Shown piece after piece: positions 21,647 to 64,000 of a stretch of DNA of 64,000 nucleotides. Both the position numbers and the translations under genes were made by a program. Numbering within the stretch: the stretch's first letter is position 1; each line of letters begins with the position of its first letter. Under the pieces are notes generated by a model that was not told where the DNA came from, searched no databases, and worked only from the letters and a program-made list of their open reading frames with translations. Source of the stretch: a virus (taxonomy: Duplodnaviria; Heunggongvirae; Uroviricota; Caudoviricetes); the IMG/VR virus record IMGVR_UViG_3300018065_000012; one strand, given 5' to 3'.

Positions 21647-22327
21647 ATGTCTGAAGTAATCACTTCTGAACGTAACTTCAAACAGGTTTTGAAAGAGGAC
21701 GAGATTTGTGATAGCCCATATACTCGTGAAGGGCTTGCCGTGCTCATTGCGGAAGGCGAAGCAAACGAGTTTGAGAAACAGCTTTTCCACGACTCCATTG
21801 TCCGCGCCATTTACACCATCGTTTTTCGCTACGGCGAATGCGATACGCGCGTGCCGGTGGAAGAGCTTGCGAACGACGCAGAATTGGCGTTGTGGAAGAA
21901 CCTGCCTTTCTTCAAAAAGGAAAAAGGCGTCAAGTTTATCACGTGGATGTGGCGTGTGGTTCGGAATCATGTGTTCAATCACCGCAAGCGGGTGACCCGT
22001 TATAGAACGAATCAGAAAATTACGACCAACATGTCTTCAGAGGAAAGCGAGTTTATCACGACTCGCGCTTGCGACGAAAGTCTTTCAAACGCAGACAAGT
22101 CGTGGCAGATGAAAAACGCCATGCAGTTGCTTTTTGATGCTTACCCGGAAAAGCAGAAAATGCTGCTCGCTCTTTTTGGCGATCCGTTTTCTGAAAACTT
22201 TTCAGGAAAGAAGCCGAACTTTGTCCGCGTGGCGAAAAAGTTGAAAACGAAAATGAACGATGTTCGGCGCTTTTGCAATCACGTTGCGTATCCGTTCTTG
22301 AAAAAGCACTTGGACGATCTGTTATAG
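21647..22327 (+). CDS. Phage-encoded RNA polymerase sigma factor (sigma-70 family, regions 2 and 4)
   Basis: KGVKFITWMWRVVRNHVFNHRKR matches sigma-70 region 2.3/2.4 (cf. YKFSTYATWWIRQAITR). The C-terminal region is HTH-like (region 4). Confidence 0.75.
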   Translation: MSEVITSERNFKQVLKEDEICDSPYTREGLAVLIAEGEANEFEKQLFHDSIVRAIYTIVFRYGECDTRVPVEELANDAELALWKNLPFFKKEKGVKFITWMWRVVRNHVFNHRKRVTRYRTNQKITTNMSSEESEFITTRACDESLSNADKSWQMKNAMQLLFDAYPEKQKMLLALFGDPFSENFSGKKPNFVRVAKKLKTKMNDVRRFCNHVAYPFLKKHLDDLL

Positions 22328-22788: not shown

Positions 22789-23686
22789 GTATTTCGAGTT
22801 TCCTTTTAACAACTTCAACAAAGCGCAAGCCGCTGCCATTCCGCACATCCCAACCGAAACAAACCTCGTGATTTCATTCCCTACCGCTACTGGCAAAACT
22901 GCGCTGGCCGAAGCAGCTTTCGGTTTTCATTTCAAAACATCCCCAAATTCAAAATGTGTCTATGTGTCGCCGTATCGTTCCTTGAGCATGCAGCAATACA
23001 ATGCATGGAAAGAGAACGCGCAGTTTTCCAAACATGGAATCGTTTTAAGCATAGGTGATCGTTTTGCGTGTAAAGAGGATTTCGATTCAAACCGTTTGAT
23101 TATCTTGACTACAGAATCATTTGACTCGAAGACGAGGAATCAAAGCCAACATAAATGGTTAAAAGAAATTACTTGTATAGTTTTTGACGAAGCGCATTTA
23201 TTGGGGACAAAAGGGCGTGGCGACAACGTAGAAGTTTCATTGGTGCGTTTTACAAAGCTGAACCCAAAAGCAAGAATTATTTTGCTGTCCGCGACAATGG
23301 AAAATGCAGGAGAATTATCGTCGTGGTTGAAAAGTTTGAACAAAAAGACGACGTTGAAAATCGTAAGCACGTGGCGTCCATCAAAAATCGTAACACGCTT
23401 TTACACGTTCGATGATGAAAAGACTTGGGAAAAGAAAATTGAGTTAGCAAAGCAGCTTGCAACAACTCCACGTGGTGAAAAAATAGTCGTTTTTGTTCAT
23501 AGTAAAAAGCTTGGGAAAGAAATTACGAAGGCAGTTAGAAAAAAGGGTTTCATTTGCGAATTTCATAATGCAAATTTATCGCACTCAAGGCGAAAAGCAA
23601 TTGAAGAAGCATTCGACAATGTCCGTTCGGGGTTGGACATCCTTGTGAGTACATCAACATTGTCAAGTGGAGTGAATTTAGGATGA
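22769..23686 (+). CDS. Ski2/Hel308-like SF2 DNA helicase, N-terminal fragment (motifs Q to V); the split gene's first part
   Basis: Q-motif FNKAQAAAI, motif I PTATGKT, II VFDEAHLL (DEAH), III LLSATMEN, V STSTLSSGVNLG. It terminates at a TGA overlapping the ATG of the following gene. An alternative start is at 22742. Confidence 0.8.
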   Translation: MQTREYEYFEFPFNNFNKAQAAAIPHIPTETNLVISFPTATGKTALAEAAFGFHFKTSPNSKCVYVSPYRSLSMQQYNAWKENAQFSKHGIVLSIGDRFACKEDFDSNRLIILTTESFDSKTRNQSQHKWLKEITCIVFDEAHLLGTKGRGDNVEVSLVRFTKLNPKARIILLSATMENAGELSSWLKSLNKKTTLKIVSTWRPSKIVTRFYTFDDEKTWEKKIELAKQLATTPRGEKIVVFVHSKKLGKEITKAVRKKGFICEFHNANLSHSRRKAIEEAFDNVRSGLDILVSTSTLSSGVNLG

Positions 23687-24264
23687 ACAAGGCGGAACGT
23701 CTCACAGAATTGCAACAGAAGTGCTATGCTTGTAAGAAGTGTGCCATTGGCGGGCAAGACGTTGATGGTCATTTGAGCAACGTGTGGTCTAATATGAGCA
23801 TGAAAGCTCAAATCATGGTAATAGGGCAGAATCCCGGTTACGTTGAAGTAGAACGTGGAAAACCTTTTGTCGGGCCGTCGGGTGAATTTTTTGATAAGGC
23901 AATTGAAGAAGTTTTAGGAATTGATAGAACGCATTTTTACATTACGAATACGTGCCACTGCTATACGGCAAAAAACCGCAAGCCAAGCAATGTCGAAATT
24001 GAAAATTGTTGCGAATTTTTAGACGCTGAAATCGAAGCCGTAAACCCAAAAATCATCGTGACCTTGGGAGCGCCATCGTTGGAGCAGGTGACTGGGCGAA
24101 AAGGAATAATGAAACTTCATGGTCAAAAGATAATTTCATTACGATACAAAAAGAACGTTTTGCCCCTATTGCATCCAAGCCCAAGAAATATGAACAAGCC
24201 TGAATTGAAAGTGAAATTTTATCAAGACTTAGAAGTCCTCAAAGAATATCTCAATGGCAGATAG
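23683..24264 (+). CDS. Uracil-DNA glycosylase superfamily protein (family 4-like, Fe-S Cys motifs), inserted between the helicase halves
   Basis: N-terminal CYACKKC Cys pair, motif A-like IGQNPG...GKPFVGPSG (cf. GEGPG...G.PFVG.aG), motif B HPSPRN (cf. HPSPLN), and further Cys at TNTCHCY and ENCCEF. Confidence 0.7.
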   Translation: MNKAERLTELQQKCYACKKCAIGGQDVDGHLSNVWSNMSMKAQIMVIGQNPGYVEVERGKPFVGPSGEFFDKAIEEVLGIDRTHFYITNTCHCYTAKNRKPSNVEIENCCEFLDAEIEAVNPKIIVTLGAPSLEQVTGRKGIMKLHGQKIISLRYKKNVLPLLHPSPRNMNKPELKVKFYQDLEVLKEYLNGR

Positions 24265-32247: not shown

Positions 32248-33663
32248 ATGGAAAAGAATCTTTGGGAACGTAAAGGTATCATCGGCGGTCATGAAATCAA
32301 GCCTGATGACAATATTGATTCTGCCAATAAGGAGAATATGAAAATGGCAAAGGACAAGAAAGACTTAAAGCTTGATCCGAATTTTGGAGACGAATCGCAG
32401 GAGCAAAATATGCCAAAGAGCGAAGAAAAACCAACGGAGGAAATTGTAGAAGCGCCAGCAGCAGGACTGTTTGTTCCAAATATTCCAATGCCTGTAACGG
32501 CAGAGGAAAGCAAGGAAATAATTAAGGACCAGTGCGAAGTAGCGTTCAAGATTGCTTTTGTTGGTGCAGGTCAAGCTGGCGCGAGGATGGTTGAAGCGTT
32601 CTACAAACTTGGTTATCGCCGCGTTTGTGCTGTAAACACAACCAGTCAAGACCTTGTTGCAATTGATATCCCAGATGAAAACAAGTTTGTTATGGACATT
32701 GGGGAAGGCGGCGCAGGCAAGGAACCAGAGAAGGGCGAACAGGCAGTCAAAAAGCATTATGAGAACGTTTATGATCTGATGCGTCGGAGTTTTGGAAAAG
32801 ACTTCGAACGGATTATTGTTTGTATCGGCGCTGGGGGAGGAACGGGTAGTGGATCAATTGAAACATTGATCGATATTGCTCACGACATTGCAGAGTCTTT
32901 CAAACTGGAAGGCGGACCGGAACAGGTACCGGCTGTTGGCGCGTTGGTTTCAATGCCGATGTCCAATGAGAGTCAGAAAGTAAACGCTAACGCTTCAAAA
33001 GTTCTTGAGGTTCTTTTTGGACGTGTTGGAAAAGACAAAGGTGGAAGATTGTCTCAAAGGACGATGTCGCCATTGATAGTTGTCGACAATGACAGAATCA
33101 GCAAACTATATCCGGGGTTGCCAGTTACGCAGTTTTGGAGCGTCGCAAATCAAAGCATCAGTGGGCTATTCCACTTGTTTAACAACATTGCGGCTGCGAA
33201 AGGCGAAAATACAATTGCGACGTTTGACCGTGCAGATTTCGCAGATGTCCTCAAGAGTGGCGTAATTACATTTGGAGCAACACCATTGATCAAATGGCAG
33301 AACGAAACGGATATCAGTTTTGCAATCAGAGAGAATTTGAAGCATAACATTCTTGTTGCTGATATTGATTTAGGCTCTGCGGCTGTTGCAGCAGGCGTTG
33401 TAATTGGCAAGGACAAAATTTTGAATTCTGTCCCGCAAGATTATTTGAACCATGGATTTGAAATGCTTGGACGGATCATGAAAACAAATAGCGTTGTCCA
33501 TCGTGGAATCTATAAGTTGGGAGAAGCGATGGATAACGTAAAAGAACAGCCGGATTTAGTCGTTTACACAGCATTTGGAGAACTCGGAAAGCCAGACGCA
33601 AGAATGGAAGAAATTCAACGTCTTGGCGCAGTCGATCAACAAAACAGAATGCGTTTGAGATGA
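32248..33663 (+). CDS. Tubulin/FtsZ-family GTPase (PhuZ/TubZ-like)
   Basis: Glycine-rich loop FVGAGQAGARM and the tubulin signature IGAGGGTGSGS (GGGTGSG). An alternative start with a strong SD is at 32344 (aaggagaatATGaaaATG). Confidence 0.75.
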   Translation: MEKNLWERKGIIGGHEIKPDDNIDSANKENMKMAKDKKDLKLDPNFGDESQEQNMPKSEEKPTEEIVEAPAAGLFVPNIPMPVTAEESKEIIKDQCEVAFKIAFVGAGQAGARMVEAFYKLGYRRVCAVNTTSQDLVAIDIPDENKFVMDIGEGGAGKEPEKGEQAVKKHYENVYDLMRRSFGKDFERIIVCIGAGGGTGSGSIETLIDIAHDIAESFKLEGGPEQVPAVGALVSMPMSNESQKVNANASKVLEVLFGRVGKDKGGRLSQRTMSPLIVVDNDRISKLYPGLPVTQFWSVANQSISGLFHLFNNIAAAKGENTIATFDRADFADVLKSGVITFGATPLIKWQNETDISFAIRENLKHNILVADIDLGSAAVAAGVVIGKDKILNSVPQDYLNHGFEMLGRIMKTNSVVHRGIYKLGEAMDNVKEQPDLVVYTAFGELGKPDARMEEIQRLGAVDQQNRMRLR

Positions 33664-34613
33664 GCAAACTTACAAAAGAACTTGTCCGCATTGCAAATGA
33701 AATACTTGGGCCAGAAATGCCCAAGCGCCCATTTGGGAAAACTGGATTTGATGTTGGGATTTTCTCATTGGGCGGTCAAGGTTCTTTGGAAACTCAAGGT
33801 GGCGAGAAAAATTGCCGCGATATTATTAGACGCGCGTTTGATTTGGGGATCAATTATTTCGACACAGCACCGGCTTACGGGCCGTCGCAAAAGTTTTATG
33901 GTGAGGTGATTCCTGATTTCAGAGACGAGATTTTTCTCGCGACAAAAACAAACGAGCGCACAAGAGATAAGTCGCTTGAGCAACTTGAAGATTCATTGAA
34001 GACGCTCAAAACAGATTACATTGATCTTTGGCAGATTCATAACATTGGAAACATCGACGAAGTAAATCAAGTCACTGCAAAAGACGGTTCATTAAAAGCT
34101 TTGATTGAGATGCGCGAACAAGGCGTTGTGAAGCATCTTGGAATTACTGGGCATTCGCATCCAGAGCCATTGCTTGAATTGATGAGTCGATTTGATTTTG
34201 ATTCGGTACTTTGCCCTTGTAATCCTGCGGATGCGGCAATGGGCGATTCTTTTGAAGAAATGCTTATTCCAAAAGCAGACAGTCGCGGGATGGGCATTGT
34301 TGGAATGAAAGTATTTGCCCAAGGACGTATTTTTCATCCTGAAAGCGTTACAACTCCGTGGGAGACCGTTTCGTTCGCTTTGTCTCAACCAGTCAGTACG
34401 ATCATCGTAGGGCACGACACGCCGGAACAACTTGAAGAAAATGTAGCTATTGCAAAAGCGTTTCACAAATTAAGCGATAAACAACAAAAGGAAATTATAG
34501 GCAGGGCGTCAGATCATAAAGAACGGGGAGCTTTTTTCCGTAAAGAGTTTGGTGGTTATGATTCAGGGAAGAAATTCAAACGGCTCATGGTTCAAAGGCG
34601 AGGGAGGCTATAA
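33660..34613 (+). CDS. Aldo/keto reductase family oxidoreductase
   Basis: INYFDTAPAYGPSQKFYGE, FLATKT, DYIDLWQIHN, HLGITGHS. These are canonical AKR motifs. Confidence 0.8.
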   Translation: MSKLTKELVRIANEILGPEMPKRPFGKTGFDVGIFSLGGQGSLETQGGEKNCRDIIRRAFDLGINYFDTAPAYGPSQKFYGEVIPDFRDEIFLATKTNERTRDKSLEQLEDSLKTLKTDYIDLWQIHNIGNIDEVNQVTAKDGSLKALIEMREQGVVKHLGITGHSHPEPLLELMSRFDFDSVLCPCNPADAAMGDSFEEMLIPKADSRGMGIVGMKVFAQGRIFHPESVTTPWETVSFALSQPVSTIIVGHDTPEQLEENVAIAKAFHKLSDKQQKEIIGRASDHKERGAFFRKEFGGYDSGKKFKRLMVQRRGRL

Positions 34614-59018: not shown

Positions 59019-59253
59019 AGACAAACTTGAACGCATTAATGAGTTGCGAGAAAAAGTATCTGAATTGACTGCGGAAAAAGACCGCTTAGAAGGTAGTATT
59101 GAAATTCAAGAAAAAGCGTTGGCCGAGATGGAAAAGGAATGTCGTGAAAAGTTTGATTGTGAAATTTCTGAATTGCCAGCGTTGACTGCAAAACTTGAAG
59201 CAGAAGCAGATGCTTTGATTTCTGAAGTTGAGGAATCATTGAAAGGGGAGTAA
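59008..59253 (+). CDS. Small coiled-coil protein (81 aa). An alternative start is at 58993.
   Basis: Heptad-like E/L/K composition. Immediately upstream of ruvC. Confidence 0.3.
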   Translation: MASEDKLERINELREKVSELTAEKDRLEGSIEIQEKALAEMEKECREKFDCEISELPALTAKLEAEADALISEVEESLKGE

Positions 59254-59855
59254 TGGGAGCTGAAATTCAAAGAGAACCGATACGTTTTCATACCATTGGA
59301 TTGGATATGTCTTTGAGCGGGACTGGATTTTGCAAGTTGACTGGTCCATTGATCACTTTGGAAACGATAAAAACAAAGCCAAGGGAATATGCTTCAGACC
59401 TTGATCGGCTGATGTATATTACAGATAAAGTGTTGACGATGATTCCTCCAGAAACGAAATTGATTTGCATTGAGGATTTTTATGTCCCGGCGTCAAGGCA
59501 ACAGTTTGGAGCGGCAATCAATTTGGTCGGGTTGGGAACGTTGATGCGAATCAAACTTTATGAGTCTGGTTTGCCGTTCGCGGTAGTAGCGCCAAGCCAA
59601 TTGAAGAAGTTTGTTGTTGGGAAAGGAAACGCAAACAAAAATTTGGTTCTCAGAGAAGTTTTCAAACGGTGGAGCGTTGACGCAAAGGATGATAATCAAG
59701 CTGACGCTTGTACGTTAGCGAAACTGTCCTTAGCTATTATTGAAAAATTGACCAGCGATAAAGCCTTCCCAAAGTTTCAAGAAGAAGTTATTTCAAAAGT
59801 CATAAACGACCGCCCAAAATACAATTGTGACAGCCTCCTTCAATCAGGTGCATAA
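59253..59855 (+). CDS. ruvC: RuvC-like Holliday junction resolvase
   Basis: TIGLDMSLSGTGF (cf. ILGIDPGSRVTGY), ICIEDFYV (cf. FAIEQVFM), KKFVVGKGNANKNLV (cf. KQTVVGIGSAEKSQV), DNQADACTLAKLS (cf. NPQADAADALAIA). Confidence 0.8.
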   Translation: MGAEIQREPIRFHTIGLDMSLSGTGFCKLTGPLITLETIKTKPREYASDLDRLMYITDKVLTMIPPETKLICIEDFYVPASRQQFGAAINLVGLGTLMRIKLYESGLPFAVVAPSQLKKFVVGKGNANKNLVLREVFKRWSVDAKDDNQADACTLAKLSLAIIEKLTSDKAFPKFQEEVISKVINDRPKYNCDSLLQSGA

Positions 59856-59904
59856 TTCTTTTATATTCACTATTAAGTAACAGACTTTTGCAGGAGGAGC
59901 TGCA

Positions 59905-60111
59905 ATGAGACGTGGACAAAGAATCGCAGAAGAGCTATATGTTCCGGGAGACCCGGACGAAGACGAAGTTGTTTTAGGCGAAGAAGAGTGCGTAGCTTTG
60001 GGACCAATGACGACCCCTGATCCAGTACATCTTTACAATCCAAGCGAAGAGATGGAATTGAATCAGATGGTAGCGAAAGAATTGTTGAGTATCGTGCAGA
60101 TGTTAAAATGA
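59905..60111 (+). CDS. Small acidic hypothetical protein (68 aa)
   Basis: SD ggagg upstream. Confidence 0.3.
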   Translation: MRRGQRIAEELYVPGDPDEDEVVLGEEECVALGPMTTPDPVHLYNPSEEMELNQMVAKELLSIVQMLK

Positions 60112-60494
60112 ATTTGGCCAAGCGAGCATATCTAAACGTTTTCAAACTTGTCCCTGAGACATGTAAGATTGCTTATGTAAAAAGAAAAGGCTCCGAGAAG
60201 AACGAAGCAAAGGACAAAGTTTACAAGTTTGACGCGATCATCGAAGCGCCTACTGATTTGCCGGATACAGGATTGGACAAAGTTACTTGCAAGGAATTGC
60301 GCAAAGAAGTTTTGAAGAACGATCTGGGTGGACCAGATATAGGGAAAGAAGTTAAGCTTAAAAACAAAGGGAAGAAAAGCAGGAAAAGAAAGTTTGTATT
60401 TACGGCGCATTTATCGCCGGAGAACGTTGATAGTTTTCAAATCATAAATGGTTTGTATCGTATTAAAATGACTTGTTATGGAGTATTCTATTGA
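60108..60494 (+). CDS. Hypothetical protein (128 aa)
   Basis: ATGA overlap. Confidence 0.35.
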   Translation: MNLAKRAYLNVFKLVPETCKIAYVKRKGSEKNEAKDKVYKFDAIIEAPTDLPDTGLDKVTCKELRKEVLKNDLGGPDIGKEVKLKNKGKKSRKRKFVFTAHLSPENVDSFQIINGLYRIKMTCYGVFY

Positions 60495-60829
60495 GAACGA
60501 ATGAGCTGATTAGAAGGATTGCTTTTTCTGAAGTGGAGCGGAAGGCCATTGCGCTTGAGCTTTTGAGAATTGCAAAGCTGCTTTCTGGAATTTTGTGTTC
60601 TGGTTCAAACGTTTCAGACTCGGAAATCAGTCGCGTAGTTAAACAGTTGAAAAGGAATCCACTCCCCGTGCCGCAACGTGCGGTCCTTTATAACCAAATT
60701 GGAGAAATTGCTTATCGTGGGAAAGATTCAGTCGGCCTTTCTCAAGCGGGGCAATTCAGAGGATGGGGACGTGGCGACTTTATCAAGCTGGACAAAAGAT
60801 TGCGCAGGCGAAAAGCAATAACTTCGTAG
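60473..60829 (+). CDS. Hypothetical protein (118 aa)
   Basis: Overlaps the upstream gene by 22 nt. Confidence 0.3.
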   Translation: MLWSILLRTNELIRRIAFSEVERKAIALELLRIAKLLSGILCSGSNVSDSEISRVVKQLKRNPLPVPQRAVLYNQIGEIAYRGKDSVGLSQAGQFRGWGRGDFIKLDKRLRRRKAITS

Positions 60830-60859: not shown

Positions 60860-62017
60860 ATGATTGAACGATTTGGCGATGTTACATATCTTTCAGGCGA
60901 ACTCATAAAAGGCAAAATCGTCCAGCAACCATTTTTGGCAAAGGGCGATTTTTTGCATGCCGTTTCTGTTGAGTTTGCAACGTTTCAACGCCGCAATGCT
61001 TGTTTGATGAAAATTGAGATTTGGAGAGACGATAAAAACATTAAAACCCACTCTGTGAAAGCAGATTATTTTGAAGACAATGTTTACAAAAAATTCGTCG
61101 TTGACTTAGAACTGGAAAAAGGGCAGCTCTATGAGATTAAAATTTATTCGCCAGATGGAGCAAATGGAAATGCGCTTACTGTAAAACATGGCGCACCGCT
61201 TCACAGAGACCTTCAATTAAAATTCAATGGCGCTCTTCAATCTGGCGAGTTGGCTTGTTTGTTGCATTACGGGAAAGACAAAGACAATGAAATTGAAATT
61301 TTACCTGCCGTTAAAACAACTCCAGAATTTGCTTCAAAGGAAAAGCCGGAACTCAGTATTATTATTCCAACGGCAAAACGTCTTGATCATCTCAAGAATT
61401 GTCTTGACAGCTTGCGGGCGCACACAAAAAATTATGAATTGATAGTGATAGTCAACACGCCTGAAACAGCTTTTACAATCAGCGTTGTAAAGTTACTCAA
61501 TCTTTATCCTAATCACACCATGATCGAAATTCCAAATTATGCAGGGTATGTTGTTCCTTGTAATATGGGTGCTGCTATTTCAAAAGGAAAGTATCTTTGT
61601 ATCTTGAACGACGACGTTATCGTTCAAAAGGATTGGTTGATACATATGATGGCAGCGTTGAAGGCCGATCCAAAATTGGCACAAGTCGGTCCTTCAATGG
61701 GTCATCTGAAATCAGATTTCAGTTTTGTAAACCGTAAAACAAGTCGCCCTTATATTGAGGGTTGGTGTTTCGTTGTCCCAAGGTGTATTTATGAAAAGTT
61801 GGGGTTGTTTGATCCAGAAATTGATTTTGCCTATTGCGAAGATTCAGATTTTTCAACAAACTTGATTCATCATGGTTACAAGATTCGTGAAGTGAAAGCA
61901 AACATCGTCCATATTCGGCATCAAACAAGCAAATCATCAGGAAATGAAATGAAGGAATTCACCGATAGGTGCGAAATTCGCAACAAGAATTTTCTCAGAA
62001 AGAAATGGGCCAAATGA
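60860..62017 (+). CDS. Family 2 glycosyltransferase (GT-A) with N-terminal extra domain
   Basis: LSIIIPTAKRLDHLKNCLDSLRAHT...YELIVIVN, the DXD-type ILNDDVIV, and GWCFVVPRCIYEKLGLFDPEIDFAYCEDSDF. Confidence 0.8.
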   Translation: MIERFGDVTYLSGELIKGKIVQQPFLAKGDFLHAVSVEFATFQRRNACLMKIEIWRDDKNIKTHSVKADYFEDNVYKKFVVDLELEKGQLYEIKIYSPDGANGNALTVKHGAPLHRDLQLKFNGALQSGELACLLHYGKDKDNEIEILPAVKTTPEFASKEKPELSIIIPTAKRLDHLKNCLDSLRAHTKNYELIVIVNTPETAFTISVVKLLNLYPNHTMIEIPNYAGYVVPCNMGAAISKGKYLCILNDDVIVQKDWLIHMMAALKADPKLAQVGPSMGHLKSDFSFVNRKTSRPYIEGWCFVVPRCIYEKLGLFDPEIDFAYCEDSDFSTNLIHHGYKIREVKANIVHIRHQTSKSSGNEMKEFTDRCEIRNKNFLRKKWAK

Positions 62018-62505
62018 ACGAGACAACAAAGATACGACCATTGGCAATAAAGTATTGTGAGGGTTGCGGAATCGATCTTGGTTGCGGCGACGAAAAGATT
62101 CGCCCAGAGGCGATTGGAATTGACGCTGGGATGGATGTGATTCATAGCGGGATAAAAGAATGGCGTGATTTGTCTGTTGTAAATATCAAACACAAAATTG
62201 TTAACCTAAACCTGTTTGAATCAAACAGTTTTAGCTATGTTTACAGTAGTCACTTTTTAGAACATCTTGCTGATCCAGAATTGATGTTAAAAGAAATGAC
62301 GCGTGTGACCTGTCCCGGTGGTCATGTAGTTGTTTATTTGCCCGATCGTTTATTGTACACACAACCAAATTCAGAGCACAAACACATGTGGACATTAGAT
62401 GAGTTTTTGAATTTGCTTCCCGATTGCTTGGAAGTGGTCGAGAACATAGCAAAACATGAAGATTACAGTTTTTTCATTGCGGCTAAAAAGAGAACAAGCG
62501 AATGA
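62014..62505 (+). CDS. Class I SAM-dependent methyltransferase
   Basis: Motif I IDLGCGDEKI, post-I FSYVYSSHFLEHL, and LKEMTRVTCPGGHVVVY. ATGA overlap with the GT2 gene; alternative starts at 61969 and 62005. Confidence 0.65.
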   Translation: MNETTKIRPLAIKYCEGCGIDLGCGDEKIRPEAIGIDAGMDVIHSGIKEWRDLSVVNIKHKIVNLNLFESNSFSYVYSSHFLEHLADPELMLKEMTRVTCPGGHVVVYLPDRLLYTQPNSEHKHMWTLDEFLNLLPDCLEVVENIAKHEDYSFFIAAKKRTSE

Positions 62506-63290
62506 TTTATGATTGCTTCCCGTTTTTCAACGAGCTTGAAATCCTTGATATTCGTTTGAACACGTTGAACAACGTTGTCGATAAGTTCGTAATCAGCGAG
62601 AGTACGCGAACGCACAGCAATGAGTCAAAACCCTTATACTTTCATGAAAATAGAAATCGTTGGGAGAAGTTTGAGCACAAAATTATTCACGTTGTAATTG
62701 ATGATATGCCACAAGGCGAAGACCATTGGGAAAGAGAACGTTATCAACGCAACGAAATGATCCGTGGGCTTGACAATATCAAGGACGGCGACTCTGTTCA
62801 TGTTTCTGATGCGGATGAAATTTCTTCTCCGGTGGCCATTTTAAGAGCGTTGAAGAAAAGGTCTCGCGTGCGAATAAGTCATGTTTGCTATTACTATTAT
62901 TTCAACCTTGTTGCAAATTGGGATTGGACGCATGCGTACGTAATGCCGTGGAGAGAATTCAAAGCGCATCACAATCCTACGCTTACTCATTTCCGACATC
63001 TTGGTTGCAATCGCAAAGTGAAAGGAGGCTGGCACTTTTCTTATTTGGGGGGTACCGAGCAGGTATGTAAGAAGATTAAAGCTTTTGCTCATCAGGAATT
63101 TAACACTCCCGAAACGCTTGCTACTATCAAAACTGCAATTGCTAAGAAACGTTCCTTTTGTGATTTGAATACGGAGTTTACAAGTGTAGTGAATATAGAT
63201 GGTAGCTATCCTGCATACGTACGAGATAATATTGAAAAGTACCGTAAAATGGGTTATGTTTGGGAAGGGGAGAAAGTTGTGCCGCTATGA
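62502..63290 (+). CDS. Glycosyltransferase family 17-like (beta-1,4-GlcNAc-transferase-like)
   Basis: MIYDCFPFFNELEILDIRLNTLNNVVDKFVISESTRTHSNESKPLYF matches the conserved GT17 N-terminal block. DXD-like HVSDADEI. Confidence 0.7.
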   Translation: MIYDCFPFFNELEILDIRLNTLNNVVDKFVISESTRTHSNESKPLYFHENRNRWEKFEHKIIHVVIDDMPQGEDHWERERYQRNEMIRGLDNIKDGDSVHVSDADEISSPVAILRALKKRSRVRISHVCYYYYFNLVANWDWTHAYVMPWREFKAHHNPTLTHFRHLGCNRKVKGGWHFSYLGGTEQVCKKIKAFAHQEFNTPETLATIKTAIAKKRSFCDLNTEFTSVVNIDGSYPAYVRDNIEKYRKMGYVWEGEKVVPL

Positions 63291-64000
63291 ACTATGTGCT
63301 TGTACTTTCAGACGAATTGACGCTTGTTGTTGATAAGATGATTCATTCGGTTTTGCAACATTGTGATTGTAAGATTTTGTTTCATGCAATTTCTTTTTCT
63401 GATAAAGACAAGGCAACTGTTGAAAAATGGAATAACAGGATTGAATTTTATGACGTGATTCAAAGCAAGTGGGATGATAGAAGGATGCTTTGTAGAATAG
63501 AATGTTTAGCTGGAACAAAGTTTTCGGCTGGCGATAAAGTATTTGTATTGGATACTGATATGCTTGTTCAAGCAGATATTTTTGAAGACCTTCCAAAAGG
63601 AGATGTGTACATAACAAGCAGACATTATCCTTATTGGTACCCGATCAACGGAGGAACGGTTGGATTCAATTACAATAAGCGATCAAAACAATTCATTGAT
63701 TTCCGATTTGAACAAGGCTTGAATCCAACATGGACTCCTTATGTTAAATTTCGCAAAAAATTTGATCGTGGGAGAGGTTTCGATTGGTGGTGTGATCAGG
63801 ATATGCTTTGCACTGTTCATGAAAATTTGCTCCCGTTTGAATGTCACGTAACTGATCTTGGCCCAAAATATAATTTTTGTCCAAGCGTAGAGTTTAATAT
63901 CCCTGACTCATTTGATAAAGCACGTAAAGAAATTCTTGAAGCTATTGGAAGGCCCGAATACAAAATACTTCATTTCAAAGGGAAGTTAAAAGAAGTGTTG
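63287..64000 (+). CDS. Putative nucleotide-sugar glycosyltransferase (GT-A, DXD), 3'-partial at the window end
   Basis: VFVLDTDMLV (DXD) and WWCDQDML. The ORF runs off the end of the window and is not in the ORF track. Confidence 0.45.
   Translation, partial: MNYVLVLSDELTLVVDKMIHSVLQHCDCKILFHAISFSDKDKATVEKWNNRIEFYDVIQSKWDDRRMLCRIECLAGTKFSAGDKVFVLDTDMLVQADIFEDLPKGDVYITSRHYPYWYPINGGTVGFNYNKRSKQFIDFRFEQGLNPTWTPYVKFRKKFDRGRGFDWWCDQDMLCTVHENLLPFECHVTDLGPKYNFCPSVEFNIPDSFDKARKEILEAIGRPEYKILHFKGKLKEVL

What the first reader, a model, noticed from the sequence alone, without database searches (positions are those of the whole stretch)
60860..64000. Cluster of three glycosyltransferases plus a SAM methyltransferase at the end of the window
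Four genes run in sequence with ATGA overlaps:
- GT2 (DXD, ED motif)
- class I methyltransferase (DLGCG)
- GT17-like (MIYDCFPFFNELEIL...)
- a partial GT-A (LDTDML, WWCDQDML)

These suggest synthesis of a methylated oligosaccharide. In a phage this could decorate virion proteins (glycosylated capsid or tail), modify host surface glycans to give superinfection exclusion, or hypermodify DNA. The cluster is separated from the tail module and sits after the recombination genes.
Basis: partly seen in the sequence, partly recalled or inferred. Interest (0 to 1): 0.5.

Follow-up and report, generated by a model that had tools for sequence, protein, structure and literature searches.

The report
Huge-phage glycan-building gene island
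The four genes are real sugar-transferring and methylating enzymes, but they are only the first fifth of a 19-gene, 15-kb island by which a very large phage builds a complex methylated sugar chain; related phages keep the same locus but swap its middle genes, and what the chain is attached to is still unknown.

Summary
Observation confirmed. Four co-directional genes with ATGA start/stop overlaps lie at 60860-64000: a GT2 enzyme with an extra N-terminal all-beta domain, a class I SAM methyltransferase, a GT17-like enzyme, and a fourth protein that has no Pfam hit but folds as a GT8-like retaining GT-A with an invariant DxD.

The window cuts the cluster. An identical contig (0 mismatches in 11,499 nt) shows 19 tightly packed genes over 15.1 kb. 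They comprise about 11 glycosyltransferases, four class I methyltransferases, a B12-type radical-SAM enzyme, a PIG-L deacetylase, a radical-SAM/SPASM enzyme and a 98-aa repeat protein. There is no membrane protein, flippase, polymerase or initiating transferase.

The element is a huge phage (contigs up to 338 kb). Four related phages carry the island at the same locus. GT2, methyltransferase, GT9 and a 450-470-aa GT4 are conserved; the genes between them differ.

The product is inferred to be a methylated, partly de-N-acetylated oligosaccharide assembled in the cytoplasm. The acceptor is unresolved: virion protein about 0.4, host envelope glycolipid about 0.3, DNA about 0.1. This is a new variant of the known multi-glycosyltransferase clusters of jumbo phages.

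The parts
60860..62017 (+). g1: GT2-family inverting GT-A glycosyltransferase (aa 161-385) with an uncharacterised all-beta N-terminal domain (aa 1-140) and a disordered linker (aa 141-160). It is the first gene of the island and one of its four conserved core genes.
   Evidence: Pfam Glycos_transf_2 6.3e-14 and Glyco_tranf_2_3 2.8e-10. Twelve full-length homologues exist, all metagenomic, with invariant N250-D251-D252 and E327-D328. The AF2 model has pLDDT 82 and shows a beta-domain, a linker and a GT-A domain. Foldseek hits are GlfT2, WrtF, K4CP, SpsA and ppGalNAc-Ts. The N-domain has no Pfam or PDB sequence match. Orthologues sit at the same position in L044, L019, L020 and L018.
62014..62505 (+). 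g2: class I SAM-dependent methyltransferase of 163 aa. It is a conserved core gene and always lies directly after g1.
   Evidence: Pfam Methyltransf_11 1.8e-10, plus Methyltransf_31 and Methyltransf_23. Motif I is DLGCG. ATGA overlap with g1 at 62014. Orthologues are 50-75% identical and adjacent to the g1 orthologue in all four relatives.
62502..63290 (+). g3: soluble GT17-like glycosyltransferase of 262 aa. It is the first gene of the variable cassette.
   Evidence: Pfam Glyco_transf_17 8.8e-26, 91.2 bits against a cut-off of 26. The family is very large: 8,242 cluster representatives at E<=1e-3, many inside 1,000-2,250-aa multidomain proteins. There is no TM segment. It is present in L011/L044 (68% identity) and as a GT17-methyltransferase fusion in L020, and absent from L018 and L019.
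63287..64000 (+). g4: GT8-like retaining-type GT-A glycosyltransferase. It is 242 aa in full, and the window lacks its last 4 codons and the stop. It belongs to the variable cassette.
   Evidence: No Pfam, PHROG or NCBIfam hit. The family of 27 metagenomic proteins has an invariant DxD (D89, D91), DWWCDQD and H229. AF2 pLDDT is 93.9. Foldseek PDB hits are LARGE1, glycogenin, GlyE, alpha3GalT and XXYLT1 at E 6e-9 to 1e-7. BFVD hits are cyanophage and giant-virus glycosyltransferases.
59253..60829 (+). Conserved left flank of the locus, not part of the island: a RuvC-like resolvase (59253-59855) and three small ORFs (59905-60111, 60108-60494, 60491-60829). They mark the fixed insertion point of the island in related phages.
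   Evidence: Pfam RuvC, weak. The flank orthologues AAA_23, a 136-aa ORF, an 81-aa ORF, RuvC and a 128-aa ORF lie directly upstream of the g1 orthologue in L018 and L044. By Pfam the same holds in L019 and L020.

Best explanation
SHOWN.
- The four genes are the first four of a 19-gene, 15.1-kb, translationally coupled island in a huge tailed phage. The island runs from window 60860 to about 75964 in window-equivalent coordinates.
- It encodes about 11 glycosyltransferases: GT2 x3, GT17-like, GT8-like, GT4/GT-B x3, GT9, a sialyltransferase/MptE-like protein and one weak GT-A.
- It also encodes four class I SAM methyltransferases, including an FkbM type and a weak CmcI/rhamnosyl-O-methyltransferase-like one, and a B12-binding radical-SAM enzyme.
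- A PIG-L de-N-acetylase lies next to a GT4. There is also a radical-SAM/SPASM enzyme and a 98-aa repeat protein.
- None of these is a membrane protein. There is no polyprenyl-phosphate initiating transferase, flippase, polymerase, ligase or exporter.
- The island occupies one fixed locus in a clade of metagenome-only huge phages. GT2-with-beta-domain, methyltransferase, GT9 and a 450-470-aa GT4 are always present. The genes between them differ from phage to phage.

INFERRED MECHANISM.
- Soluble enzymes add sugars one at a time in the cytoplasm from host nucleotide sugars.
- A GlcNAc is added and then de-N-acetylated (the GT4 + PIG-L pair).
- Several hydroxyls, and probably a carbon, are methylated.
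- The result is a large, capped, strain-specific hetero-oligosaccharide.

MOST LIKELY ACCEPTOR (inferred, low confidence). A phage structural protein, so that the glycan decorates the virion. This would resemble mycobacteriophage capsid and tail-tube glycosylation and the self-encoded glycosylation machinery of giant viruses. The variable cassette would then give glycan 'serotypes'.
For: Extent and identity.
- L001 is identical to the window over 11,499 nt.
- Extra domain calls are.
- The 19 genes have one 8-nt gap and otherwise overlap (coordinates).

Phage identity.
- The window carries a tape-measure-like 2,146-aa protein, DnaE, topoisomerase II, ligase, helicases, RecA and tubulin.
- Contigs reach 338,319 bp.

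No membrane step.
- The maximum 19-residue hydropathy in g1-g20 is 1.62, against 2.03 for a neighbouring lipoprotein signal peptide.
- Relatives reach at most 1.96, and those maxima lie in proteins annotated or identified as glycosyltransferase-family enzymes.

Fixed locus, conserved core, variable cassette.

Sugar O-methylation. FkbM, a weak CmcI/RMNT match and TylF-type methyltransferases are found in the cassettes.

Indications pointing to a macromolecular, non-lipid acceptor.
- Both conserved end enzymes carry non-catalytic N-terminal modules: the g1 beta-domain and the g19 conserved 110-aa domain with a basic tail.
- The core GT4 is essentially absent from 185,579 bacterial and archaeal species genomes, so it is phage-specific.
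- In Streptomyces phage KimJongPhill a distant homologue of g19 lies with a methyltransferase and a UDP-glucose dehydrogenase directly upstream of terminase and portal.

Precedent. Mycobacteriophage virion glycosylation, as cited in PMC12619734.
Against: - No acceptor has been identified, and no structural gene is adjacent. The nearest recognisable tail gene is about 54 kb away, and the neighbours are replication and recombination genes.
- GT9, GT8-like, GT2, GT4 and a sialyltransferase-like enzyme are also the typical content of LPS-core/LOS loci. Those loci likewise use only peripheral cytoplasmic enzymes.
- Published interpretations of jumbo-phage multi-glycosyltransferase clusters favour host surface polysaccharide modification (PMC7824862; 10.1101/2025.02.27.640493).
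- Only about 84 kb of a genome of at least 338 kb was inspected.
- Several domain calls are below curated thresholds: g6, g7 and the Pfam hit of g13.
Confidence: 0.4

Rival explanations
1. Host envelope remodelling. The soluble phage enzymes act at the cytoplasmic face of the inner membrane on a host lipid-linked acceptor, either lipid A-core as in LOS assembly or an undecaprenyl-PP-linked primer as in ABC-transporter-type O-antigens. Host MsbA or another host exporter and ligase then deliver the altered, methyl-capped glycan to the surface. There it blocks superinfection by competing phages or stops progeny adsorbing to debris.
For: - The enzyme families are those of LPS-core/LOS loci: GT9 heptosyltransferase family, GT8-like, GT2 and GT4, and a sialyltransferase-like g13.
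- LOS-type assembly needs no dedicated flippase or polymerase, so the absence of membrane proteins is compatible.
- The layout of conserved ends plus a hypervariable middle mirrors bacterial surface-glycan loci, which are under diversifying selection from phages.
- Iyer et al. 2021 interpret jumbo-phage glycosyltransferase clusters this way (PMC7824862).
Against: - It requires that host export machinery accepts a foreign glycan of 10 or more sugars.
- The phage shows no sign of lysogeny in the region seen.
- The core GT4 and g1 families are essentially absent from bacterial genomes, so they are not recent captures from a host LPS locus.
- There is no compositional sign of acquisition.
- The conserved non-catalytic N-terminal domains of g1 and g19 are not a feature of Waa-type enzymes.
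Confidence: 0.3
2. DNA hypermodification. The conserved core (GT-A, GT9, GT-B and a methyltransferase) attaches a short glycan to a hydroxymethylated base of phage DNA, and the cassette extends or varies it. This would be an arms race with restriction systems and modification-dependent nucleases.
For: - The island lies directly after replication and recombination genes: DnaE, gyrase-like topoisomerase II, ligase, an SbcC-like AAA protein and RuvC.
- The most conserved enzyme, g19, carries a K/R-rich N-terminal tail in all five orthologues.
- Known phage DNA glycosyltransferases are GT-A (TarP/JGT-like), GT8-like and GT-B (BshA/MshA-like), and install hexose, HexNAc, heptose or Kdo (10.1101/2023.12.21.572611).
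- Three relatives have only three or four glycosyltransferases, which is within the known mono- to trisaccharide range.
Against: - No C5-cytosine methyltransferase, 5mYOX/TET, dCMP/dUMP hydroxymethylase or other base-activating enzyme was found in the about 84 kb inspected.
- About 11 glycosyltransferases, sugar O- and C-methylation, de-N-acetylation and, in L019, a sulfotransferase-like gene have no precedent on DNA.
- The contigs assembled normally from short reads.
Confidence: 0.1
3. Small-molecule or peptide product. The island makes a diffusible glycoside, either aminoglycoside-like or glycolipid-like, or a glycosylated ribosomal peptide. The GT4 + PIG-L pair, the B12-radical-SAM methylase and the radical-SAM/SPASM enzyme would act as in antibiotic or RiPP pathways.
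For: - The combination of GT4 with a PIG-L deacetylase, a B12-type radical-SAM enzyme (NCBIfam similarity to PhpK, ApyD and AprD4-type enzymes, all below their cut-offs) and a SPASM enzyme (similar to peptide maturases, also below cut-offs) recalls aminoglycoside and RiPP clusters.
- The small 98-aa protein g16 always accompanies g17.
Against: - There is no 2-deoxy-inosose synthase, aminotransferase or dehydrogenase, no precursor-peptide-like gene with a leader, and no transporter or immunity gene.
- These rSAM, PIG-L and related genes are in the variable cassette and are absent from three of the five island versions. They are accessory tailoring steps, not the core chemistry.
Confidence: 0.07

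Closest known systems
Multi-glycosyltransferase 'capsular polysaccharide modification' gene clusters of jumbo (cyano)phages (Iyer, Anantharaman, Krishnan, Burroughs & Aravind 2021, PMC7824862)
   Same: A large lytic-type phage carries several paralogous or unrelated glycosyltransferases together with O-methyltransferases in one cluster. Gene content is polymorphic between related phages. Function is predicted, not demonstrated.
   Different: - No NDP-sugar synthesis genes lie inside the island here. Only a nucleotidyltransferase a few genes downstream in one relative, and a DegT aminotransferase in another, were seen.
- This island is much larger (19 genes).
- It has B12-radical-SAM, SPASM and PIG-L enzymes.
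- It has a defined four-gene conserved core at a fixed locus.
- It belongs to a different, uncultured phage clade.
Mycobacteriophage virion O-glycosylation (Freeman et al. 2023, cited in PMC12619734; paper itself not readable here)
   Same: Phage-encoded soluble glycosyltransferases, with a neighbouring methyltransferase in some actinophages (compare KimJongPhill). There is no membrane machinery, and the glycan is displayed on capsid and tail tube.
   Different: Those phages have 2-4 glycosyltransferase genes and genomes of 50-100 kb. No sequence relationship closer than about 25% identity was found. No glycosylated virion protein is known here.
Giant-virus autonomous glycosylation machinery (chlorovirus capsid glycans; mimivirus fibril glycans). 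From my own knowledge, not read here.
   Same: Clusters of many soluble glycosyltransferases plus sugar methyltransferases, encoded by a very large virus, build complex methylated glycans on virion proteins in the cytoplasm. GT-A folds like that of g4 are common in giant viruses. Many GT17-like domains occur in very long multidomain proteins.
   Different: Those are eukaryotic viruses with no shared ancestry of the loci. Giant viruses usually also encode the nucleotide-sugar pathways.
Lipooligosaccharide (LOS) biosynthesis loci of Campylobacter and Neisseria. From my own knowledge.
   Same: GT9 heptosyltransferase gene(s) are conserved. A hypervariable set of GT2, GT8 and sialyltransferase-type genes lies between conserved genes. 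All enzymes are peripheral and cytoplasmic, and there is no Wzx/Wzy.
   Different: Those loci are chromosomal and bacterial, include lipid A acyltransferase and sialic-acid synthesis genes, and the acceptor is known. Here the genes are phage-specific and the acceptor is unknown.
Phage DNA sugar-hypermodification gene clusters (Pyle, Lund, O'Toole & Saleh, 10.1101/2023.12.21.572611)
   Same: Phage GT-A, GT8-like and GT-B enzymes are related to LPS and teichoic-acid enzymes. Sugars can include heptose. The clusters are polymorphic.
   Different: Those clusters are defined by an adjacent cytosine C5-methyltransferase and a 5mYOX dioxygenase and add one to three sugars. Neither partner enzyme was found here, and the enzyme count is several-fold higher.

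Membership tests
GT2 (Pfam PF00535 Glycos_transf_2): g1 | Profile score above the curated gathering threshold | tested here: met
   52.7 bits against a cut-off of 23.3, covering aa 166-293. PF13641 scores 41 bits against 27.
GT2 (Pfam PF00535 Glycos_transf_2): g1 | GT-A fold with a DxD-type metal/nucleotide-sugar motif and a downstream acidic (ED) motif | tested here: met
   N250-D251-D252 and E327-D328 are invariant in 12 homologues. The AF2 GT-A domain matches GlfT2, SpsA, K4CP, WrtF and ppGalNAc-Ts at E 3e-10 to 4e-8.
GT2 (Pfam PF00535 Glycos_transf_2): g1 | Inverting transfer from a nucleotide sugar; donor and acceptor identity | not testable with these tools
   Needs an enzyme assay.
Class I SAM-dependent methyltransferase: g2 | Rossmann-type methyltransferase profile above threshold and glycine-rich motif I | tested here: met
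   Methyltransf_11 scores 41.7 bits against 21.2, Methyltransf_31 33.1 against 27, and Methyltransf_23 29.9 against 27. Motif I is DLGCG at aa 24-28.
Class I SAM-dependent methyltransferase: g2 | The substrate is a sugar hydroxyl (sugar O-methyltransferase) | not testable with these tools
   The evidence is context only: g2 always abuts g1. NCBIfam hits are generic (UbiE/MenG-like, all far below their cut-offs).
GT17 (Pfam PF04724; founding member MGAT3/GnT-III): g3 | Profile score above the curated threshold | tested here: met
   91.2 bits against a cut-off of 26, E 8.8e-26, profile positions 75-276 of 348.
GT17 (Pfam PF04724; founding member MGAT3/GnT-III): g3 | Type II membrane anchor and Golgi localisation, as in the animal enzyme | tested here: not met
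   There is no hydrophobic segment (maximum hydropathy 0.68), and the protein starts directly with the catalytic domain. It is a soluble GT17-like domain, as in thousands of prokaryotic and viral homologues.
GT17 (Pfam PF04724; founding member MGAT3/GnT-III): g3 | Beta-1,4-GlcNAc transfer to the core mannose of N-glycans | not testable with these tools
   No assay is possible. The activity should not be assumed for a phage homologue at this distance.
GT8-like retaining GT-A: g4 | Sequence membership (Pfam Glyco_transf_8 or any glycosyltransferase profile) | tested here: not met
   No Pfam, PHROG or NCBIfam hit, even at E<=1 for Pfam. There is no PDB sequence hit.
GT8-like retaining GT-A: g4 | GT-A fold closest to GT8/GT6 enzymes, with a DxD and a C-terminal His positioned as metal ligands | tested here: met
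   AF2 pLDDT is 93.9. Foldseek hits are LARGE1, glycogenin, GlyE, alpha3GalT and XXYLT1, probability 1.0, TM 0.5-0.62. D89, D91 and H229 are invariant. The metal-ligand role itself is inferred.
Phage DNA sugar-hypermodification cluster (Pyle et al.) | Glycosyltransferases neighbouring a cytosine C5-methyltransferase and a 5mYOX/TET dioxygenase, or another hydroxymethyl-base pathway | tested here: not met
   None was found among the genes of window 1-64000 and the 20 kb downstream that were annotated. The rest of the genome, at least 250 kb, was not seen.
GtrABC-type seroconversion / Wzx-Wzy or ABC-transporter surface-polysaccharide locus | Membrane components: bactoprenol-linked glycosyltransferase, flippase, polymerase, ligase, an ABC transporter or an initiating phosphoglycosyltransferase | tested here: not met
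   No transmembrane segment in g1-g20. No such Pfam family appears in any of the five island versions. Hydropathy maxima of at most 1.96 lie in proteins annotated or identified as glycosyltransferase-family enzymes.
Bacterial autotransporter heptosyltransferase (TibC/Aah) type protein-glycosylating GT9: g18 | Closer to TibC than to LPS heptosyltransferases; four-Cys iron-finger homologous to that of TibC | tested here: inconclusive
   The profile hits 3tov (6.5e-11) and WaaF (8.8e-7) better than TibC (0.02). Four Cys are invariant, but the Cys-rich segment alone finds no PDB relative.
Phage virion glycosylation system (mycobacteriophage type) | Glycan demonstrably attached to capsid or tail proteins | not testable with these tools
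   Requires virions or co-expression. No cultured relative exists.

The most novel reading that the evidence does not exclude
The island writes a long, methylated, strain-variable oligosaccharide onto the phage's own DNA. It would do so without the C5-methyltransferase/5mYOX pair that defines all known post-replicative DNA glycosylation clusters. The basic-tailed GT4 (g19) or the beta-domain GT2 (g1) would be the DNA-binding initiating enzyme, and the cassette a diversifying anti-restriction coat.
Probability: 0.1. Interest if true: 0.85.

Novelty: new variant of a known kind. Interest (0 to 1): 0.5.

Why it matters
Glycosyltransferases are among the commonest protein folds in huge phages, yet for almost none is the product or target known.

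This locus is a clean comparative system. It has a fixed position and a four-gene conserved core. Its cassette ranges from 2 to 15 genes in five related phages. It has no membrane steps, so the whole pathway should be reconstitutable from soluble proteins in E. coli.

If the glycan decorates virions, this would be the bacterial-virus counterpart of the self-encoded glycosylation of giant viruses. It would also show serotype-like glycan variation in phage particles.

If the glycan remodels the host envelope, it would be a lytic-phage route to superinfection exclusion that bypasses Gtr-type machinery.

Either way, the island holds uncharacterised enzymes of potential use in glycoengineering:
- a GT2 with a new beta-domain;
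- a Pfam-orphan GT8-like family;
- a four-Cys GT9;
- a B12-radical-SAM enzyme in a glycan context.

Tried and rejected
- blastn of the region against 50,697 deposited phage genomes gave no match. There is no cultured relative.
- IMG/VR loci found with g3 (L004-L007) share only the GT17-like gene and no synteny. IMG/VR and GTDB searches with the core GT4 profile gave only relatives at 30% identity or less, and a single distant MAG hit.
I worked around it through a homologue search.
- TibC-like iron-finger idea for the GT9: the full profile gave TibC at E 0.02, worse than the LPS heptosyltransferases. The Cys-rich segment alone gave nothing. Not supported.
- The g1 N-terminal beta-domain has no Pfam or PDB sequence relative.
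- Horizontal-acquisition signal: island GC is 0.39-0.44 against 0.40-0.47 in the flanks, so there is no anomaly.
- Promoter-like sites are at the chance level (33 found, 31.9 expected). Terminator-like sites are only slightly above it (17 found, 11.2 +/- 3.5).
- There are no tRNAs in the window.
- I tried to identify the sampled environment from the JGI sample numbers in the literature, without success.
- The Freeman et al. paper on virion glycosylation is not held.
- The Phapecoctavirus four-glycosyltransferase cluster, which contains distant g19 homologues, has no published function that I could find.
- Considered and rejected: that the ORFs are chance, that the cluster is complete at four genes, and that this is classical GtrABC seroconversion.

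Full report
**1. The observation**

Four ORFs lie head to tail on the + strand at the end of the window:
- g1, 60860-62017, 385 aa;
- g2, 62014-62505, 163 aa, using the ATG chosen by the public gene call rather than the upstream GTG;
- g3, 62502-63290, 262 aa;
- g4, from 63287 to the window end.

Each junction is an ATGA start/stop overlap.

Pfam places g1 in Glycos_transf_2 (52.7 bits, cut-off 23.3), g2 in Methyltransf_11 (41.7 against 21.2) and g3 in Glyco_transf_17 (91.2 against 26). PHROGs agrees for g1 and g2.

g4 has no hit in Pfam, PHROGs or NCBIfam and none by sequence in the PDB. Its family of 27 metagenomic proteins has an invariant L-D-x-D, an invariant DWWCDQD block and an invariant C-terminal His. 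The AlphaFold2 model is confident (pLDDT 93.9). It matches the retaining GT-A enzymes LARGE1, glycogenin, GlyE, alpha-1,3-galactosyltransferase and XXYLT1 with probability 1.0. It also matches many cyanophage and giant-virus glycosyltransferases.

**2. The window cuts the cluster**

A look-up of the exact g3 protein returned a 61.9-kb ENA contig. It is identical to the window over all 11,499 overlapping bases. A second look-up extended it further.

g4 ends 15 nt beyond the window. Fifteen more genes follow without a break. In the list below, window-equivalent coordinate = L008 + 61826.

| Gene | Assignment | Support |
|---|---|---|
| g5 | GT-B | Glyco_trans_1_2, 27.3 against 25 |
| g6 | Methyltransf_24 / CmcI-rhamnosyl-O-methyltransferase-like | weak |
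| g7 | GT-A-like | Mannosyl_trans3, weak |
| g8 | FkbM methyltransferase | – |
| g9 | radical-SAM enzyme, 429 aa | E 1e-35 to B12-binding radical-SAM families; the orthologue carries PF02310 |
| g10 | Methyltransf_11 | – |
| g11 | PIG-L de-N-acetylase | – |
| g12 | GT4 | – |
| g13 | MptE-like | phrog_4603 'alpha-2,3-sialyltransferase', 1.7e-9 |
| g14 | radical-SAM/SPASM | – |
| g15 | GT7C/GT2 | – |
| g16 | 98-aa protein with two internal repeats | – |
| g17 | GT2 | – |
| g18 | GT9 | – |
| g19 | GT4, 469 aa | phrog_7162, 1.6e-46 |

The 19 genes span 15.1 kb, with one 8-nt gap and otherwise overlapping stop and start codons.

The next gene, g20 (400 aa, helical, charged, no family), and a Zn-ribbon protein do not look glycan-related.

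**3. What carries it**

The window encodes:
- a 2,146-aa tape-measure-like protein, a DnaE-type polymerase, both topoisomerase II subunits, an NAD ligase and DnaB-like and other helicases;
- RecA, a flap endonuclease and a tubulin;
- a primase, a sigma factor and a UDG;
- ClpS, an SbcC-like AAA protein and RuvC.

All are on one strand. Identical proteins occur on contigs up to 338,319 bp. This is a huge tailed phage known only from metagenomes. Nothing similar exists among 50,697 deposited phage genomes. Cultured phages hold only homologues of g19 and g1 at 25-29% identity.

**4. Anatomy that bears on mechanism**

(a) No membrane machinery. No protein g1-g20 has a transmembrane-grade hydrophobic segment. 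The maximum 19-residue hydropathy is 1.62, against 2.03 for the lipoprotein signal peptide of a downstream gene. No Pfam family of an initiating phosphoglycosyltransferase, flippase, polymerase, ligase or exporter appears. The whole pathway is therefore cytoplasmic and soluble or peripheral.

(b) No nucleotide-sugar synthesis gene lies in the island, so donors must be host metabolites. The conserved GT9 suggests ADP-heptose. This is an inference from the family.

(c) The adjacent GT4 + PIG-L pair is the arrangement used in mycothiol, bacillithiol, GPI and aminoglycoside pathways to add GlcNAc and then expose the amine. That is established knowledge of those pathways, and its application here is inferred.

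(d) Methylation. FkbM and CmcI/RMNT-like methyltransferases are here, and TylF-type methyltransferases are in relatives. These are families containing sugar O-methyltransferases. The B12-type radical-SAM enzyme would add a C- (or other unactivated) methyl group.

(e) Extra modules. g1 carries an N-terminal all-beta domain of 140 residues (AF2) with no known family. g19 carries a conserved 110-residue N-domain preceded by a K/R-rich tail in all orthologues. g18 orthologues have four invariant cysteines in the C-terminal region.

**5. Comparative evidence**

Four other metagenomic phages carry the island at the same place. The left flank is AAA_23, two small ORFs, RuvC and one to three small ORFs. 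The right flank is a 300-400-aa unknown protein followed by the Zn-ribbon protein (orthology by BLASTP).

In all five phages the island begins with the g1-type GT2 followed by the g2-type methyltransferase, and ends with GT9 and the 450-470-aa GT4. What lies between differs.

| Phage locus | Cassette content |
|---|---|
| Window phage | 15 genes (g3-g17) |
| L044/L011 | 14 genes; g16 and g17 moved to just after g2; no FkbM |
| L019 | a TylF methyltransferase and a sulfotransferase-like gene |
| L020 | a TylF methyltransferase, a GT2 and a GT17-methyltransferase fusion |
| L018 | a second GT9, a 203-aa protein and a DegT aminotransferase |

So g1 and g2 of the finding belong to the conserved core, and g3 and g4 to the variable cassette.

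Between the window phage and its closest relative, backbone proteins are 44-63% identical (ligase 60%, RuvC 63%, AAA 44%). Cassette enzymes are 61-81% identical, except g4 at 46%. This fits either stronger constraint or more recent exchange of the cassette.

There is no GC anomaly. Promoter-like sites are at the shuffled expectation and terminator-like sites only slightly above it.

An unrelated 326-kb huge phage in GenBank has a different glycosyltransferase island, with GDP-mannose dehydratase/epimerase, GT10 and FkbM genes. Such islands are evidently recurrent in huge phages. This agrees with the literature (PMC7824862; 10.1101/2025.02.27.640493).

**6. Explanation**

What is shown: a dedicated, conserved, soluble, multi-enzyme glycan assembly and tailoring line.

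What is inferred: stepwise cytoplasmic assembly of a methylated, partly de-N-acetylated hetero-oligosaccharide whose structure varies between related phages.

The acceptor is not determined.

I favour a phage structural protein (about 0.4), for these reasons:
- nothing in any of the five versions provides or requires a membrane step;
- both conserved end enzymes carry extra non-catalytic domains suited to recognising a macromolecule;
- the core enzymes are phage-specific rather than borrowed from bacterial envelope loci;
- the only experimentally established role for glycosyltransferase-methyltransferase clusters in lytic phages is virion glycosylation (cited);
- a distant g19 homologue sits with a methyltransferase beside terminase and portal in a Streptomyces phage.

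Host LOS/LPS-core-type remodelling (about 0.3) fits the enzyme families and the layout of conserved ends with a variable middle equally well. It is the interpretation preferred in the jumbo-phage literature.

DNA glycosylation (about 0.1) is suggested by the genomic neighbourhood and the basic tail of g19. It lacks any base-activating enzyme in the 84 kb seen, and it would need an unprecedented glycan size.

A small-molecule or RiPP product (about 0.07) is unlikely, because the radical-SAM and PIG-L genes are accessory and not core.

**7. Novelty and score**

Multi-glycosyltransferase clusters in jumbo phages are a known kind, and glycosyltransferases are among the most abundant folds in huge phages. 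New here are:
- the size and enzyme mix: about 11 glycosyltransferases, five SAM-dependent methylation-type enzymes including a B12-radical-SAM enzyme, PIG-L and SPASM;
- the clear core-plus-cassette architecture at a fixed locus across a phage clade;
- several orphan modules.

I rate it a new variant of a known kind, with interest 0.5. It is not surprising in principle. It is, however, a well-defined and reconstitutable system for the open question of what huge-phage glycosyltransferases do.

Noticed in passing
window 32248-33663 (+): A 471-aa tubulin-family protein (Pfam Tubulin), PhuZ-like, followed by an aldo-keto reductase (33660-34613). It suggests this huge phage organises its replication compartment or DNA with a cytoskeletal filament.
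   Followed up: no
L008 10752-11048 (window-equivalent about 72578-72874): g16 is a 98-aa protein with two ~30-aa repeats of the form G-V-K-+-E..YFVD..G.ISR, reminiscent of cell-wall/choline-binding beta-hairpin repeats (Pfam Choline_bind_2 only at E 0.12). It always travels as a pair with the GT2-like g17, and the pair sits at a different place in the related island.
   Followed up: partly
L008 12729-14138 (g19) and orthologues in L011, L018, L019, L020: The most conserved island protein is a GT4 with a K/R-rich N-terminal tail (MSNKSREKKRKEKAKRKKQRNKDK...). The tail is followed by a conserved ~110-aa domain with an invariant IAPMPPExKK..LPY motif of unknown function.
   Followed up: partly
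L008 11839-12732 (g18) and five orthologues/paralogues: These GT9 enzymes have four invariant cysteines (C243, C248, C266, C272) in a C-terminal extension, a possible metal site. The relation to the TibC iron finger was tested and not supported.
   Followed up: yes
L018 8743-9894 (- strand): A TnpB/Cas12f-like gene (OrfB_IS605, Cas12f1-like_TNB) is inserted on the opposite strand immediately upstream of the island in a distant relative. It is a possible agent of rearrangement at this locus.
   Followed up: no
L019 4978-5412 and 20293-21105; L044 5756-6667: Counter-defence genes lie near the locus in relatives: Tad3 and an Anti-Pycsar Apyc1-like metallo-beta-lactamase in L019, and a weak AcrVA2-like hit in L044.
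   Followed up: no
L008 18846-19988 (g30): A second radical-SAM protein with a weak SPASM match (380 aa) lies 5 kb downstream of the island. It is 73% identical in the related phage and is separated from the island by small ORFs.
   Followed up: no
L008 17018-17380 (g26): A 120-aa protein with a lipoprotein-type signal peptide and lipobox (MIMVLLLLLFSGC), conserved at 55% in the relative. It may be a spanin or a superinfection-exclusion lipoprotein, and it hints at a diderm host.
   Followed up: no
window 21647-22327, 23683-24264, about 52.7-53.0 kb: The phage encodes its own sigma-70 region-2 protein, a UDG-superfamily glycosylase and a ClpS-like adaptor.
   Followed up: no
L007 10001-10132 (IMG/VR contig of 268,817 bp): Only a 44-residue fragment, 64% identical to the N-terminus of g3, is present inside an 80-aa ORF. 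It is a possible remnant of a GT17-like gene in another very large viral contig.
   Followed up: partly
L013 (GenBank CACVDL010000001.1, 325,850 bp): An unrelated huge phage carries a different glycan island: Gly_transf_sug, GT7C-like, FkbM, GT10 fucosyltransferase-like, STELLO-like, and two GDP-mannose-dehydratase/epimerase genes. It sits next to structural-looking large proteins.
   Followed up: no
L043 (Escherichia phage Schickermooser, NC_048196.1 103701-106845): Cultured Phapecoctavirus phages have four consecutive glycosyltransferase genes beside the replicative helicase and DNA polymerase. One is a distant homologue of g19. I found no published function for them.
   Followed up: partly
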